Source of the DNA: a virus | Taxonomy: Duplodnaviria; Heunggongvirae; Uroviricota; Caudoviricetes | Strand: one strand, 5' to 3' | Length of the DNA stretch: 22,246 nucleotides | Virus record (IMG/VR): IMGVR_UViG_2706795421_000001 | Coordinates: 1-22,246 of that record | Shown: positions 2,861 to 18,815 of the stretch, in pieces | Layout of the letters: every line of letters starts with the position of its first letter | Position numbering within the stretch: position 1 is the stretch's first letter | Notes under the pieces: generated by a model | What the model saw: only the letters and a program-made list of their open reading frames with translations | Told to the model about the DNA's origin: nothing | Database searches by the model: none | Translations under genes and position numbers: made by a program

Positions 2861-3759
2861 CCCTAGACCTAAATAGAGCACCTGCTTCGGCTACCCACTA
2901 CTCCGTTCGGACGGACTCTCCCTTTACAACCTTCTGGAGAAAGGAAGGTGATCTGTTTACCCGTATATGGGTAGCTGATGCAGAGGGTTTGCGTCTGCCA
3001 GAAGGGCGTACTCCCACACCTTACGAGAAAGGTGTTGCGAGTGTTTATGCCAAGCCCTTGCCATCCCCTCCTCAGGATGTAGTGGATAATCCTGTCATAG
3101 CTTCCTACCGAGAAGCGTTCAGCCCCGCCCCTCAGGTTGCGTCGGGAGAACCCCGGGCACGTGGGAAAGTGGACTACAGTAGTCTGGACAGCTACGTCTG
3201 GAGCCAGGCTCCACTTCAGGCCAACTTCTTCTCCCTGGGGTTGAACGGGGAGTTGAACTGCTGGCTGCGCGTTGAAGAAGACAAGATCGTAACGGTTTGG
3301 ACGGAGCAGGGTACGGTGTATAACTATCGATCATCCGACCGACAACCTTCGGTACCTGGTCCGAGATTCCCCCGCCCCCAGAAGAAGGAAGAGGCCTCCC
3401 CTCAAGAGTGGGACGGTGAAGGACTCCCTCCTGTCGGCTGCACCGTCCAACTGGTGGACATCTCTTCTCCTGTGAGCCCGCCTTTCGATGAGTGGTTGCT
3501 TGGGGACTACCTGGAGGTGATCGCCCACAAGGAGGTTTGTGGAACCGTTCGTCCTGTCGTGTGGAATGACAGGAAGCAGACGGGATCGTCCATCCTTCCA
3601 AGGCTGATTAGCCCTGTGTCCCAAGAGACTCTGGCTGCCGAGAAGGAACGCCAGCAAGGTATCCAGGAAATGGTCTCTTTGGTGAGCAGCATGGACCTTG
3701 CCCGTGCCCTGGAAGTGCTGTATGATGCAGGCTATCGCAAACAGGAGGCCACCAAATGA
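2857..3759 (+). CDS. Modular hypothetical phage protein (300 aa)
   Basis: Start moved to ATG 2857 (ATGA overlap, SD AGGAGGA). Two AP-x-x-A-x-[HF]-[YF]-S segments, a WDGEGLPPVG segment and a C-terminal LYDAGYRK, all recurrent in phage hypothetical proteins. Confidence 0.82.
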   Translation: MTLDLNRAPASATHYSVRTDSPFTTFWRKEGDLFTRIWVADAEGLRLPEGRTPTPYEKGVASVYAKPLPSPPQDVVDNPVIASYREAFSPAPQVASGEPRARGKVDYSSLDSYVWSQAPLQANFFSLGLNGELNCWLRVEEDKIVTVWTEQGTVYNYRSSDRQPSVPGPRFPRPQKKEEASPQEWDGEGLPPVGCTVQLVDISSPVSPPFDEWLLGDYLEVIAHKEVCGTVRPVVWNDRKQTGSSILPRLISPVSQETLAAEKERQQGIQEMVSLVSSMDLARALEVLYDAGYRKQEATK

Positions 3760-12153: not shown

Positions 12154-12182
12154 AAAGGCAGCTATTTAGCTGCCTTTTTTAT
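12154..12182 (+). terminator. Intrinsic terminator at the strand-convergence point
   Basis: AAAGGCAGCTA-TT-TAGCTGCCTTT perfect inverted repeat (12154-12177) running into TTTTTTATT. Confidence 0.88.
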
Positions 12183-12346
12183 TGCCCTTTTTCAGCCCTG
12201 CTTTGATCCTCGTCCCACATTTCCGTACAAACTGTAGTCCCCTTCACGTCTTTTGAGAAGACTTCTTTTGATCCTGTATATACCCCCTTCCCGGCTGTGA
12301 AAGTTATTGTGTAAGCTTGGCATTTCAAACCGGCCAGGGCCTTCAT
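12179..12346 (-). CDS. Possible small hypothetical protein (55 aa)
   Basis: Fills the gap between two terminators and stops at the convergent one; the SD is poorly spaced and no promoter was seen. Confidence 0.3.
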   Translation of the reverse strand: MKALAGLKCQAYTITFTAGKGVYTGSKEVFSKDVKGTTVCTEMWDEDQSRAEKGQ

Positions 12347-12359
12347 CCTTCTTTCATGC

Positions 12360-12396
12360 AAAAGAAAACCCCGCCAACTTCCGTCAGCGGGGTTTC
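12360..12396 (-). terminator. Intrinsic terminator of the leftward operon
   Basis: Minus strand AAACCCCGC, 12-nt loop, GCGGGGTTTTCTTTT, about 20 nt past the stop at 12418. Confidence 0.8.
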
Positions 12397-12417: not shown

Positions 12418-12726
12418 CTAGGTGTTACTCTCATAGCCTGTGCAAAGATAGTCATCAGGCGCTGTCCAGTCGTCTTTCAACCTGGAGACTGTCAAAGGAA
12501 CGCAGCACTCTTTACGGAAGCAGGAAGTCTCACACCTGTGATGACACCTCCCTCCGTCCAGGCAGCGAGTTCCCAGAATTTCATCTTCTCCTGCCAATAT
12601 CCCACACTCAGCTTTCAAGTCGGCGGCCTTAATCCGATTAAGCTCCATTTTCACCCATCTCCTCCTCTCTTGCCTTGTCAAACCTGGAGGGAAAGATATT
12701 ACATCCTCCGCGTTTTCTTCCGTCAA
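12418..12726 (-). CDS. Hypothetical protein with Cys-rich C-terminus (102 aa)
   Basis: Start preferred at TTG 12726 (TTGA overlap, SD GGGAG); CLDGGRCHHRCETSCFRKECC. Confidence 0.72.
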   Translation of the reverse strand: MTEENAEDVISFPPGLTRQERRRWVKMELNRIKAADLKAECGILAGEDEILGTRCLDGGRCHHRCETSCFRKECCVPLTVSRLKDDWTAPDDYLCTGYESNT

Positions 12727-13001
12727 AACGGAAGCTCCCACTTGATGAGGCTTTCCAGGGCTACCTCGATATCCTTAGCCCTCAAAGGGTCTTCGTGGCC
12801 TTCAACGGGAAATGTTGCCTCAACTTTTACTGCATCAATGAGACAAGCTCCTGGAACCTTCCGTACTACTGTTGGGACCACGATGGAGACGATCTCACAC
12901 GCCGGGGCATAGCTATAGACCTCGAACTCCTCTGAAGCCCATTCATACTCATTCCCTTCGGGAGTCCACCGCTTCCATACAACGTTGACGACAATCTTCA
13001 T
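12723..13001 (-). CDS. Hypothetical protein (92 aa)
   Basis: ATGA overlap with the upstream gene. Confidence 0.75.
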   Translation of the reverse strand: MKIVVNVVWKRWTPEGNEYEWASEEFEVYSYAPACEIVSIVVPTVVRKVPGACLIDAVKVEATFPVEGHEDPLRAKDIEVALESLIKWELPF

Positions 13002-13186
13002 TCATTCCACCTCGTACCACCATGATCTTTTCTTTCCAGCATCTGCTTCTCTTGGGCTTCCTGGAACTTAGACTCATCCCAGGAAGACTTAGTGTCAACC
13101 AGGATTGACGCCAGAATACCCAGGATTGCCAGGATTGCCAGGACGATCATCGCCTCTGTCAGGGTGAACCCTTTTTCCTTTTTCAT
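12998..13186 (-). CDS. Type IV prepilin-like (class III signal peptide) mini-protein (62 aa)
   Basis: MKKEKG/FTLTEAMIVLAILAILGILASILV: basic leader, G-F cleavage site, Glu at +5 and a hydrophobic helix. SD AAGGAGG; ATGA overlaps on both sides. Confidence 0.82.
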   Translation of the reverse strand: MKKEKGFTLTEAMIVLAILAILGILASILVDTKSSWDESKFQEAQEKQMLERKDHGGTRWNE

Positions 13187-13758
13187 TCAGCCTCCTTGCC
13201 CTGGACAAGCAAGGTATTGGCTTGACGTTCCATCTCGGCGATGTGAAGGCGCTGGAAGCCGTTCTGAGTTTCCATGGGAGAGAGCAGTACCTGGTTTGCC
13301 GGGTAACCTTCCTCCGGGGTTTCTTTGGTGTCAGGCTGGGGAAGGTAGCGGCGCCGTTCCAGCTCCTCGAACAGGACAGCCATATCTTTGTCCATCTCTC
13401 GGGTACAGGTGATCACACCATTGATTTTCCAGCCTACACCGCCGCCGTGGATGGAAGTTACGCTGACAGTGAAAGGGTCATGTTTGTTGCTCATTTGGGT
13501 CTCCTGAATGTGAATGGAAAGAACGTCTTGTTGAAGAGCGTCCAGGTAGGTGCGGACCTCTTTGTTTCGGTTGGCCTGGCTGTCCAGGTGGCTCAGATGT
13601 ACATAGCTTGCAGGGCCCAGCCGTGCAGCCCTGTCCGAAACCAGGTTGAACAGCTTGAGGGTATCTCGCTTGAGATTTCCCGACAGAACTATCCAGGAAG
13701 GCTCAAACTGAGGGCCGTCTGCATGATCGGTGTACAAGTCTACGGTCAGCGTGCTCAT
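13183..13758 (-). CDS. Hypothetical protein (191 aa; possible internal start at 13494)
   Basis: SD AAGGAG; continuous ORF in the operon. Confidence 0.75.
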   Translation of the reverse strand: MSTLTVDLYTDHADGPQFEPSWIVLSGNLKRDTLKLFNLVSDRAARLGPASYVHLSHLDSQANRNKEVRTYLDALQQDVLSIHIQETQMSNKHDPFTVSVTSIHGGGVGWKINGVITCTREMDKDMAVLFEELERRRYLPQPDTKETPEEGYPANQVLLSPMETQNGFQRLHIAEMERQANTLLVQGKEAE

Positions 13759-18251: not shown

Positions 18252-18815
18252 TTATGATTTGTAGTACACGTGCCGCTCGATTCTGAGCGTCTTTTTCATG
18301 GTTTTCGTCCAGCTAGGCATGTACTTAACCTTTGCAGGGTTCAGGTAGTGATCCGCCCCTCCTGTAGGGTCTTTGGACAGCCCTTTTAAAGCCCTCCAAG
18401 CCACTACCTTGGATTGGTCCCACTGATCCTTCTCTTGGATTCCTGCCTTCCGGCTTCCATCGCAAGTGTACGAGAACTGGCAACGGAAGTACACCACTCC
18501 TGGGACTGTTGAGGGCCAGCGGTCGGGGTTGTTCATCCGGTTTAGAATGACGTGGGCAACTCCTTCTTTGCCTCTCCAGCTCTCGCCTCGGGCCTCAAAG
18601 TAGATAGCCTCTGCCAGGGTTCTGCAAGACTTCTGACGCTCGCACAACACCTTATAGGTCTCTCTTTTCTGGACTTCATCCAGAGGTTGACTGCTGAGAA
18701 CCGCTCTCTTCTCCAAGAGATGGAAGCGAGAGGTCTCAATGCCTACCATGATCTCGAACAGTAGTCCGGACGCGGCCAATAGAGTGCTCAGGCAGAGCGC
18801 TTCTAGGGTCTTCAT
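18252..18815 (-). CDS. SleB-like cell wall hydrolase (Hydrolase_2 family)
   Basis: LAEAIYFEARGE, VAHVILNR, WPSTVPGVVY, QFS and HVYY motifs; hydrophobic N-terminus. Confidence 0.9.
   Translation of the reverse strand: MKTLEALCLSTLLAASGLLFEIMVGIETSRFHLLEKRAVLSSQPLDEVQKRETYKVLCERQKSCRTLAEAIYFEARGESWRGKEGVAHVILNRMNNPDRWPSTVPGVVYFRCQFSYTCDGSRKAGIQEKDQWDQSKVVAWRALKGLSKDPTGGADHYLNPAKVKYMPSWTKTMKKTLRIERHVYYKS

What the first reader, a model, noticed from the sequence alone, without database searches (positions are those of the whole stretch)
12998..13186. Phage-encoded truncated type IV pilin mimic
Seen: MKKEKG/FTLTEAMIVLAILAILGILASILV closely parallels the P. aeruginosa PilA N-terminus (recalled as MKAQKG/FTLIELMIVVAIIGILAAIA), including G-1/F+1 and E+5. 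The globular head is replaced by about 30 charged residues. Known: PilD cleaves and methylates this motif for both type IV pili and T2SS pseudopilins, and pili are receptors for many Pseudomonas phages. Inference: a dominant-negative subunit or PilD decoy that jams pilus or T2SS assembly, excluding competing pilus-dependent phages or altering motility and secretion. This is unexpected in a lytic phage and a leading candidate for a novel function.
Basis: partly seen in the sequence, partly recalled or inferred. Interest (0 to 1): 0.85.

Follow-up and report, generated by a model that had tools for sequence, protein, structure and literature searches.

The report
Headless prepilin gene in Pseudomonas phage
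A virulent Pseudomonas aeruginosa phage carries a small, conserved gene for a pilin made only of the signal peptide and helical stalk, with no head; it probably interferes with the host's type IV pili, but the gene family and this idea are already in print and the function is untested.

Summary
Window 12998-13186 (minus strand) encodes a 62-aa protein with a 6-residue basic leader ending in Gly, then Phe+1, Glu+5, a 24-residue hydrophobic helix and a 32-residue charged tail. It passes the curated cut-offs of Pfam N_methyl (35.4 vs 21.2 bits) and TIGR02532. AlphaFold2 gives one helix and no head.

The window is a Nankokuvirus (PAK_P3/KPP10-like). The gene is the ortholog of PAK_P3 gp139, present in all 37 Nankokuvirus records and in no other phage record. 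It is under purifying selection, tail included, and is transcribed in the middle/late replication operon.

The window allele differs from PAK_P3 only by one extra copy of a 9-bp repeat inside the helix. Alleles of 59, 62 and 65 aa exist.

The novelty claim is overstated:
- The PAK_P3 record already notes "pseudopilin PulG".
- One GenBank record and UniRef call it prepilin-type.
- Sztanko et al. 2026 describe truncated ~60-residue PilA-like proteins in virulent Pseudomonas phages and propose the same two hypotheses.

New here: headless prepilins recur in unrelated viral contigs (16 of the 80 examined).

My best reading, at 0.45, is a PilD-processed poison subunit that stops type IV pilus assembly. 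This is inferred, not shown.

The parts
12998..13186 (-). CDS of the 62-aa headless prepilin, ortholog of PAK_P3 gp139, KPP10 ORF132 and G1 orf026 (phrog_10597)
   Evidence: ORF list. Pfam N_methyl 35.4 bits against cut-off 21.2. TIGR02532 above cut-off. phrog_10597 E 5.5e-43. Orthologs in 37 of 37 Nankokuvirus records.
13169..13186 (-). Leader peptide MKKEKG (residues 1-6). The predicted PilD cleavage site lies after Gly6.
   Evidence: Sequence. M1, K2, K5 and G6 are invariant in 9 orthologs. Cleavage itself is inferred from the motif.
13097..13168 (-). Hydrophobic alpha1-N segment, residues 7-30, with Phe+1 (F7) and Glu+5 (E11)
   Evidence: GRAVY 2.48; best 19-residue Kyte-Doolittle window is 12-30 at 3.04. 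F7, T8, L9 and E11 are invariant. AF2 helix with pLDDT 92-93 here.
13120..13143 (-). 9-bp tandem repeat (CCAGGATTG on the + strand, 2.7 copies) inside the helix. The extra copy adds three residues (Leu-Ala-Ile) compared with PAK_P3.
   Evidence: TRF. Window equals PAK_P3 gp139 plus a 9-bp insertion at codon 16. 59-, 62- and 65-aa alleles exist. DNA runs X1 and X2 carry one more copy; RNA-library contigs X9 and X12 carry one fewer.
13001..13096 (-). Charged, helical tail, residues 31-62, predicted to face the periplasm. It takes the place of the pilin alpha1-C and head.
   Evidence: 8 D/E, 6 K/R, 1 H, GRAVY -2.06. Helix to residue 60. 21 of 32 positions are invariant across the 9 orthologs. Pairwise dN/dS of the tail is 0.13-0.41 for all but the near-identical Ab06/Ab11 pair (0.60 on 4 differences).
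13191..13197 (-). Shine-Dalgarno AAGGAGG, 4 nt upstream of the ATG
   Evidence: Read from the sequence. AAGGAG is invariant in the DNA alignment of 8 phages.
13183..13758 (-). Upstream gene, the gp140 ortholog (191 aa, phrog_10851, no known family). Its TGA overlaps the prepilin ATG (ATGA).
   Evidence: Nankokuvirus-specific, 95-99.5% identical, dN/dS 0.03-0.17 in informative pairs.
12723..13001 (-). Downstream gene, the gp138 ortholog (92 aa, phrog_10165, no known family). Its ATG overlaps the prepilin TGA (ATGA).
   Evidence: RNA-library contigs from two studies span this gene, the prepilin gene and gp140.
12365..12396 (-). Terminator-like hairpin (14-bp stem plus T run) that ends the leftward operon, two genes downstream of the prepilin gene
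   Evidence: Pattern scan. It corresponds to the RNA-Seq-annotated rho-independent terminator after gp137 in the PAK_P3 record.

Best explanation
The gene encodes a headless prepilin: a class III signal peptide plus a single long helix of about 52 residues. Proposed steps, each marked as shown or inferred. (1) It is transcribed with the replication genes from the middle of infection onward. This is shown for the PAK_P3 ortholog. (2) It inserts into the inner membrane with the N-terminus in and the C-terminus out, and host PilD cuts after Gly6 and methylates Phe7. This is inferred from a motif that meets every sequence requirement. (3) The 56-residue mature stalk joins the membrane pool of pilins and engages the type IVa pilus machine, and possibly the PilD-dependent type II secretion pseudopilus, through its alpha1-N. 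This is inferred. (4) Lacking a head, it cannot make the outer contacts between subunits, so it acts as a poison or chain-terminating subunit at low stoichiometry. Extension stops, retraction continues, and the infected cell loses its pili within minutes. This is inferred. (5) The benefit would be exclusion of pilus-dependent competitor phages. If pili are a Nankokuvirus receptor, as reported for LSL4, a further benefit would be less loss of progeny on infected cells and debris. This is inferred. The conserved acidic tail probably gives specificity for a periplasmic contact that is not yet identified.
For: Motif: Pfam N_methyl and TIGR02532 score above their curated cut-offs for all alleles. 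Gly-1, Phe+1 and Glu+5 are invariant in 9 orthologs. A buried Glu in a membrane helix is costly unless it is used. Architecture: one helix, residues 9-60, no head, no Cys. The best solved relatives by sequence are the naturally headless Geobacter PilA-N 'geopilins' (9egp_A, E 2.2e-6, aligned over residues 2-51). Real gene: strong SD and ATGA coupling; 37 of 37 Nankokuvirus records; dN/dS 0.21-0.59 overall, and 0.13-0.41 for the tail in all but one near-identical pair. Expression: PAK_P3 gp139 rises 12-fold (log2 3.63) between 3.5 and 13 min, with modest counts (PMC4933390 Table S5). The mean infection cycle is 18 min. RNA-library contigs from two studies cover the gene. Biological fit: LSL4 is reported to use pili as receptor and carries the early pilus inhibitor PIT4; EPa24 and EPa26 scored as pilus-dependent. 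Phage-encoded pilus components that exclude other phages are established for P-FimU, and the same paper proposes this mechanism for truncated PilA-like proteins of virulent Pseudomonas phages. Recurrence: of 80 IMG/VR contigs with GFTLxE proteins, 16 have a mature length of 70 residues or fewer, in genuine phage contexts.
Against: Nothing functional was tested: no processing, localisation, piliation or exclusion data exist for this family in the searched literature. Expression is middle/late, whereas classical superinfection-exclusion genes are early. The canonical Pro22 of major pilins is replaced by Asp. Insertions of 3 or 6 residues in the helix are tolerated in natural isolates, which argues against a strict packing register in a filament. 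The evidence that pili are a Nankokuvirus receptor is thin: the screen that scored EPa24 and EPa26 also scored every PAO1-lytic phage as pilus-dependent and calls itself preliminary. The tail has no detectable relative of known function.
Confidence: 0.45

Rival explanations
1. It is a periplasm-facing effector peptide unrelated to pili. The prepilin signal only inserts and anchors a 32-residue acidic helix at the outer face of the inner membrane. There it acts on another envelope target, for example lysis timing, a holin or antiholin-like role, cell-wall enzymes, or envelope stress sensing.
For: The tail is conserved and under purifying selection. Length changes in the helix are tolerated, as expected for a simple anchor. 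Expression is middle/late and the protein is small, with one membrane helix and a charged C-terminus, like many lysis-associated proteins. No holin is annotated or detected near the endolysin in this window. Truncated PilA is known to trigger AlgW/AlgU envelope signalling in P. aeruginosa (PMC3684759).
Against: An ordinary membrane anchor does not need an invariant Gly-1/Phe+1/Glu+5. The same motif is kept in at least 16 unrelated headless phage proteins. There is no holin, spanin or lysis PHROG or Pfam hit. The gene lies 5 kb from the endolysin, inside the replication operon. The C-terminus (…RWNE) lacks the hydrophobic or aromatic end of the FTF type that activated AlgW in that study.
Confidence: 0.2
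2. It is a masking subunit rather than a poison. The stalk is incorporated into otherwise functional pili, as P-FimU is. This thins out or removes binding sites for pilus-dependent phages without stopping assembly.
For: This is one of the two options proposed by Sztanko et al. for truncated phage PilA-like proteins. The P-FimU precedent shows that phage pilins can be built into working pili. Headless pilins can form filaments, as Geobacter PilA-N does; these are the top solved-structure hits.
Against: Modest transcript levels make substantial replacement of the very abundant PilA unlikely within a 10-minute window. A subunit without a head leaves a gap instead of presenting a new surface. The register shift of 3 or 6 residues in natural alleles fits poorly with precise packing.
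Confidence: 0.12
3. It is a decoy for host proteins that read pilin N-termini. It would compete for PilD and slow maturation of pilins and pseudopilins, or it would mimic a full pilin pool to the sensor kinase PilS and shut down pilA transcription.
For: Slowed prepilin processing and PilS-mediated feedback each suffice to give phage resistance (PMC13170266). The Nankokuvirus LSL4 already targets PilS with PIT4. The motif is a bona fide PilD recognition sequence.
Against: Low to moderate expression is unlikely to titrate an enzyme that handles the abundant PilA. Transcriptional repression of pilA is of little use late in an 18-min lytic cycle. From my own knowledge of Kilmury and Burrows 2016, which is not held in the library, Pro22, which is absent here, matters for PilS signalling.
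Confidence: 0.1
4. It is a functionless remnant: a fragment of a captured bacterial pilin gene that is merely carried along.
For: It is short and its only recognisable domain is the N-terminal motif. It evolves faster than both neighbouring genes.
Against: It is present and intact in 37 of 37 genomes. Its dN/dS is well below 1, including the tail. It has a strong SD and translational coupling. The tail is unrelated to any pilin alpha1-C. It is transcribed.
Confidence: 0.03

Closest known systems
Truncated PilA-like proteins (about 60 residues) of virulent Pseudomonas phages, noted by Sztanko et al., Cell Rep 2026 (PMC12952977)
   Same: About 60 residues, only the PilA-like N-terminus, encoded by non-temperate Pseudomonas phages. 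The hypotheses are the same: incorporation into the pilus or inhibition of its assembly. This is very probably the same family.
   Different: Identity could not be verified because their Table S3 is not held. That paper gives no experiments on the family. The window allele has an extra Leu-Ala-Ile in the helix.
Prophage-encoded P-FimU minor pilins of F10-like P. aeruginosa phages
   Same: A phage-encoded, PilD-type pilus component used in competition between phages.
   Different: P-FimU is a full-length minor pilin with a head. It is expressed from prophages, is built into functional pili and blocks phages that bind the pilus tip. The protein here has no head, comes from a virulent phage and is expressed middle/late.
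Geobacter PilA-N ('geopilin domain 1'), a naturally headless type IVa pilin
   Same: Best solved-structure match by sequence (9egp_A, E 2.2e-6, aligned over residues 2-51). The signal type is the same and the mature protein of about 60 residues is all helix.
   Different: It is bacterial. It works with a separately encoded PilA-C head partner and keeps Pro22. No PilA-C-like partner is evident next to the phage gene, whose neighbours have no family match. Tail identity is low.
P. aeruginosa PilA and the PilD-dependent pseudopilins (XcpT to XcpX)
   Same: Leader length and charge, Gly-1, Phe+1, Glu+5 and a hydrophobic alpha1-N. In the common 59-aa allele Gly14 is also in register.
   Different: No alpha1-C/beta-sheet head, no disulfide loop, and Asp in place of Pro22. 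Similarity to the PAK pilin ends at about mature residue 23. All NCBIfam full-length pilin and pseudopilin models score far below their cut-offs.
Other phage inhibitors of P. aeruginosa type IV pili (Tip, Aqs1, PfsE, PlzR, PIT4)
   Same: The proposed outcome is the same: loss of pilus function and exclusion of pilus-dependent phages.
   Different: As far as I know, those proteins target the pilus assembly machinery or its regulators, such as PilB, PilC, PilZ and PilS; only PIT4 acting on PilS and PlzR acting on PilZ were read here. None imitates the subunit. Tip, Aqs1 and PfsE come from temperate or filamentous phages, and PIT4 is early, whereas this gene is middle/late.

Membership tests
Prepilin-type N-terminal cleavage/methylation domain (class III signal peptide; PF07963, TIGR02532) | Profile score above the curated cut-off | tested here: met
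   PF07963 35.4 bits against 21.2. TIGR02532 21.4 against 16.3. The 59-, 62- and 65-aa alleles score 38.5, 35.4 and 34.8 bits.
Prepilin-type N-terminal cleavage/methylation domain (class III signal peptide; PF07963, TIGR02532) | Short, net-basic leader ending in Gly-1, then Phe+1 and Glu+5 | tested here: met
   MKKEKG | FTLTE. G6, F7 and E11 are invariant in 9 orthologs.
Prepilin-type N-terminal cleavage/methylation domain (class III signal peptide; PF07963, TIGR02532) | About 20 hydrophobic residues directly after the cleavage site | tested here: met
   Residues 7-30, GRAVY 2.48. Helical at pLDDT above 90.
Prepilin-type N-terminal cleavage/methylation domain (class III signal peptide; PF07963, TIGR02532) | Cleavage and N-methylation by the prepilin peptidase PilD | not testable with these tools
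   This needs biochemistry.
Type IVa major pilin (PilA-type) | Globular alpha/beta head packed on alpha1-C | tested here: not met
   Only 56 mature residues, and AF2 gives a single helix. Pfam finds no pilin head domain.
Type IVa major pilin (PilA-type) | C-terminal disulfide-bonded loop | tested here: not met
   No cysteine.
Type IVa major pilin (PilA-type) | Conserved Pro22 kink in alpha1 | tested here: not met
   Asp stands at the aligned position and the protein has no Pro.
Naturally headless pilins (Geobacter PilA-N type) | Mature protein of about 60 residues consisting of alpha1 only | tested here: met
Naturally headless pilins (Geobacter PilA-N type) | Adjacent gene for a separate head-like partner (PilA-C) | tested here: inconclusive
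   The neighbouring gp140 and gp138 orthologs match no family. By eye they have no N-terminal signal. They were not folded.
Truncated phage PilA-like family of Sztanko et al. 2026 | About 60-residue PilA N-terminus encoded by virulent Pseudomonas phages | tested here: inconclusive
   The description fits, but their accession table is not held.
Phage P-FimU | Full-length FimU-like minor pilin expressed from a prophage | tested here: not met
   62 aa, no FimU model hit, in a virulent Nankokuvirus.
Holin | Match to a holin family, or a position in a lysis cassette next to the endolysin | tested here: not met
   No holin PHROG or Pfam hit. The endolysin lies at 18252-18815, about 5 kb away.

The most novel reading that the evidence does not exclude
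Headless prepilins are a widespread, repeatedly evolved phage weapon. Many unrelated virulent phages, including T4-like and jumbo phages, would carry 40-70-residue proteins that borrow the host prepilin peptidase and then act, at low stoichiometry, as chain-terminating subunits of type IV pili, competence pili or type II secretion pseudopili. The variable acidic tails would set the specificity. This would be a general subunit-mimic mode of superinfection exclusion or envelope takeover, distinct from all known inhibitors of the pilus motor or its regulators.
Probability: 0.25. Interest if true: 0.7.

Novelty: new member of a known kind. Interest (0 to 1): 0.42.

Why it matters
Type IV pili are a major phage receptor and a virulence factor of P. 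aeruginosa, and Nankokuviruses are used in phage-therapy cocktails. If the headless prepilin depiliates infected cells, it would be the first pilus inhibitor that works by imitating the subunit rather than by binding the motor or a regulator. It could also shape interference between cocktail phages that depend on pili. A 56-residue peptide that blocks pili would be of anti-virulence interest. Because similar genes recur in many unrelated phages, one clean experiment on this family would annotate a whole class of small phage ORFs.

Tried and rejected
No binding test could be run.
- Kilmury and Burrows 2016 (PilA-PilS) is not held, and Sztanko Table S3 is not held. Identity with their 'six Pseudomonas phages' family therefore stays an inference.
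- tblastn at E up to 10 against 50,697 phage records found the protein only in the 37 Nankokuvirus records. The sister genus Pakpunavirus gave no match. BLAST's low-complexity filter may hide weak matches to the hydrophobic segment.
- The exhaustive HMMER search of 1.84 billion representatives found only the protein's own cluster at E below 1e-10. The two short look-alikes, P0022 and P0030, sit on contigs of about 1 kb, which are too short to identify.
- The protein atlas gave only scores of 0.87, below the trust level, to short N_methyl clusters. It gave nothing for gp140.
- Neighbouring genes have no Pfam family and only Nankokuvirus-specific PHROGs. The operon therefore gives no functional clue.
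- Earlier notes of this scan near the locus concern other features and did not bear on this gene.
- The laid runs were contigs only. They show that RNA libraries contain the stretch and which repeat allele it is, but not level, strand or transcript ends.
- The promoter scan found no more sites than in shuffled sequence.
- I considered the holin, spanin and AlgW-activating-peptide readings and ranked them low for the reasons given under the rival explanations.
- Fold search was not run, because a single helix gives meaningless matches.
Full report
**1. The observation**

- An AAGGAGG Shine-Dalgarno sits 4 nt upstream of the start.
- The start codon overlaps the stop of the upstream gene (ATGA), and the stop overlaps the start of the downstream gene (ATGA).
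- Pfam N_methyl (PF07963) matches residues 1-26 with 35.4 bits against a gathering score of 21.2 (E 6.7e-9).
- NCBIfam TIGR02532 (IV_pilin_GFxxxE) also exceeds its cut-off, 21.4 against 16.3.
- Every full-length pilin or pseudopilin model (PpdD, GspG, GspH, ComG, PilV and others) matches only the first 25-50 residues and scores far below its cut-off.
- This is the only N_methyl match in the complete 86,246-bp phage genome.

Composition:
- The leader MKKEKG has a net charge of +2.
- Residues 7-30 are hydrophobic (GRAVY 2.48), with Glu at mature position 5.
- Residues 31-62 are strongly hydrophilic, with 8 acidic, 6 basic and 1 His residue.
- There is no Cys and no Pro.

AlphaFold2 with the family alignment gives one uninterrupted helix from residue 9 to 60 (mean pLDDT 77.8, above 90 in the hydrophobic part).

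**2. What genome and what gene**

The region is 90-95% identical at the DNA level to 37 Pseudomonas phage records, all Nankokuvirus: G1, PAK_P3, KPP10, PAK_P5, CHA_P1, PS24, LSL4, the Epa phages and the Ab phages.
- The gene is the ortholog of PAK_P3 gp139, KPP10 ORF132 and G1 orf026, and it belongs to phrog_10597.
- tblastn finds it in all 37 of those records and in no other of 50,697 phage records.
- An exhaustive HMMER search of 1.84 billion representative proteins finds only its own cluster below E 1e-10.
- It is third from the end of a long leftward operon that runs from the endolysin through DprA, a helicase and an HslV-like peptidase.
- That operon ends at a 14-bp-stem terminator at 12396-12365. 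The terminator matches the one annotated from RNA-Seq in the PAK_P3 record.
- The flanking genes, the gp140 ortholog (191 aa) and the gp138 ortholog (92 aa), have no family outside the genus.

**3. Conservation and selection**

In nine orthologs the invariant positions include M1, K2, K5, G6, F7, T8, L9 and E11, most of the hydrophobic helix, and 21 of the 32 tail positions. The tail contains the blocks SSWDE, FQEAQ and TRWNE.

| Region | Pairwise Nei-Gojobori dN/dS |
|---|---|
| Whole gene | 0.21-0.59 |
| Tail alone | 0.13-0.41 (0.60 for the near-identical Ab06/Ab11 pair, on 4 differences) |
| gp140 and gp138 orthologs | 0.03-0.17 in informative pairs |

The protein is constrained, tail included, but evolves faster than its neighbours. 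The tail is therefore a functional part and not filler. It shows no similarity to the alpha1-C of host PilA: the solved PAK pilin (1oqw_A) aligns only to residues 7-29 of the 59-aa ortholog.

**4. A length polymorphism inside the helix**

The window allele equals PAK_P3 gp139 plus one extra copy of a 9-bp unit, a tandem repeat at 13120-13143. The extra copy adds Leu-Ala-Ile.

| Allele | Where it was seen |
|---|---|
| 59 aa | On 22 contigs; the common form |
| 62 aa | This window |
| 65 aa | Two contigs, including an 83-kb phage assembly |

Laying public runs on the window confirmed the polymorphism. Two DNA runs carry one more copy than the window, and RNA-library contigs from two independent studies carry one fewer. 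All three alleles still pass the Pfam cut-off.

In the common 59-aa allele the spacing F1, E5, G14 is exactly that of canonical pilins. In the window allele the Gly moves to position 17. Tolerance of 3 or 6 extra residues suggests that no strict register is needed between the N-terminal motif and the tail. I cannot tell whether the longer alleles are fully functional.

**5. Expression**

- In PAK_P3 infection of strain PAK, gp139 is classed as late: log2 fold change +3.63 between 3.5 and 13 min, adjusted p 9e-10. Normalised counts are modest, about 700-1,900 at 13 min, and gp137, gp138 and gp140 behave alike (PMC4933390 Table S5).
- The paper states that middle transcripts concentrate on the two nucleic-acid-metabolism regions, and this gene lies in one of them. 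Onset at about 6 min is therefore likely, but this is an inference.
- The eclipse period is 12.3 min and the mean cycle is 18 min.
- RNA-library contigs of 1.4 and 2.8 kb span the gp138, gp139 and gp140 orthologs. That is compatible with co-transcription, although contigs cannot prove a single transcript.

**6. What is already known**

- GenBank PV733668 names the ortholog 'prepilin-type N-terminal cleavage protein', and UniRef names the cluster likewise.
- Sztanko et al. (Cell Rep 2026, PMC12952977) showed that prophage-encoded FimU-like minor pilins are built into the pilus and block tip-binding phages.
[quoted passage not shown] They suggest that these proteins either incorporate into the pilus or inhibit its assembly.
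- That description fits this family, but their accession table is not held.
- I found no experimental work on the protein.

**7. Link between these phages and pili**

- The Nankokuvirus LSL4 is stated to use type IV pili as receptor. It encodes an early protein, PIT4, that abolishes twitching through PilS and blocks infection by a pilus-dependent phage. The authors read this as infection exclusion (PMC10714779).
- EPa24 and EPa26 scored as needing pili plus LPS core on PAO1 mutants (PMC12838167).
- That screen was preliminary and scored every PAO1-lytic phage as pilus-dependent, so it is weak evidence.

**8. Recurrence in other phages (new here)**

- PHROGs holds other short families with the same N-terminus, phrog_13280 (67 positions) and phrog_11263 (72 positions).
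- A pattern scan of IMG/VR found 152 viral contigs that encode relatives.
- Of the 80 best, 16 encode proteins with a mature length of 70 residues or fewer. All keep Gly-1 and Glu+5, and nearly all keep Phe+1 (two have Leu). Most have polar, acidic tails. A further 18 have 71-100 residues.
- The selection of the 80 is ranked by similarity to a short query, so these fractions are not prevalence estimates.
- Their neighbours are bona fide phage genes such as a clamp loader, helicases, SbcD and a polymerase exonuclease. As in the Nankokuviruses, the gene often sits among replication genes.

**9. Mechanism**

Shown:
- A real, conserved, transcribed gene.
- A complete class III signal peptide.
- A single helix with no head.
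- A constrained tail.

Inferred from established pilin biology (Strom and Lory; Nunn and Lory; summarised in PMC13170266):
- The protein inserts into the membrane with the N-terminus in.
- PilD cleaves after Gly-1.
- PilD methylates Phe+1.
- The mature protein resides in the inner-membrane pilin pool.

I favour a poison or chain-terminating subunit (confidence 0.45) for three reasons:
- A stalk with Phe1 and Glu5 can dock like any pilin but cannot supply head-to-head contacts.
- The low expression fits a sub-stoichiometric action better than titration of PilD.
- Pilus dynamics are fast enough for depiliation in the 10 minutes or so that are available.

The rivals are an envelope effector unrelated to pili that only borrows the signal (0.20), a masking subunit (0.12), a decoy for PilD or PilS (0.10) and a remnant (0.03). 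The tolerance of length changes in the helix and the late timing are the main observations that do not sit comfortably with the favoured model.

**10. Family membership**

The protein meets every sequence-level criterion of the prepilin-type N-terminal domain family. It fails the defining features of a PilA-type pilin: no head, no disulfide loop and no Pro22. Structurally it resembles the naturally headless Geobacter PilA-N, which gives the best solved-structure hits (9egp_A, E 2.2e-6). No PilA-C-like partner is evident. It is not a P-FimU and shows no holin signature.

**11. Verdict**

- The novelty claim is overstated. This is a new allele of a gene family that is already annotated and already discussed in print, and its function is still untested.
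- Moderate interest remains because the hypothesis is cheap to test and because the class appears to recur across unrelated phages.

Noticed in passing
L017:3001-3983, L038:3001-4053, L013:210-1001: In three unrelated viral or metagenomic contigs a headless prepilin gene (48-49 mature residues) is followed directly, or after one small two-helix membrane protein, by a lipoprotein gene. In L017 and L038 this is phrog_200 'lipoprotein'. In L013 I saw a lipobox followed by a long soluble domain. This may be a recurrent two-gene envelope module.
   Followed up: partly
L046, L048, L079-L083 (match at 3001 in each): A second family of small phage prepilin-like proteins (75-88 mature residues) shares a short conserved block after the helix (…C-I-x-G-Y-K-F-V-V-G…A-R-Q…D-E-x-G). 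It looks like a minimal head rather than no head.
   Followed up: no
window 12723-13758: There is a sharp mosaic boundary around the prepilin gene. Between this window and phage G1 the upstream gp140 ortholog has dS 0.008, while the downstream gp138 ortholog has dS about 2.6. The pattern is reversed against Ab06 (0.51 and 0.12). Recombination breakpoints therefore fall at or next to the prepilin gene.
   Followed up: partly
window 12154-12177 (+) and 12365-12396 (-): Two convergent terminator-like hairpins flank a 180-bp gap that holds a 60-codon minus-strand ORF (12179-12361, phrog_19439). This marks the meeting point of the rightward and leftward transcription units.
   Followed up: no
P0013, P0018, P0020: Several database proteins carry two tandem copies of a prepilin N-terminus in one ORF. 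They are either fused or duplicated pilin genes or assembly artefacts. They explain some multi-stretch hits in the representative search.
   Followed up: no
window 18252-18815 and surroundings: The endolysin gene lies inside the replication operon, and neither flanking gene is a recognisable holin or spanin by PHROGs. The lysis partners of Nankokuviruses remain unidentified in this window.
   Followed up: partly
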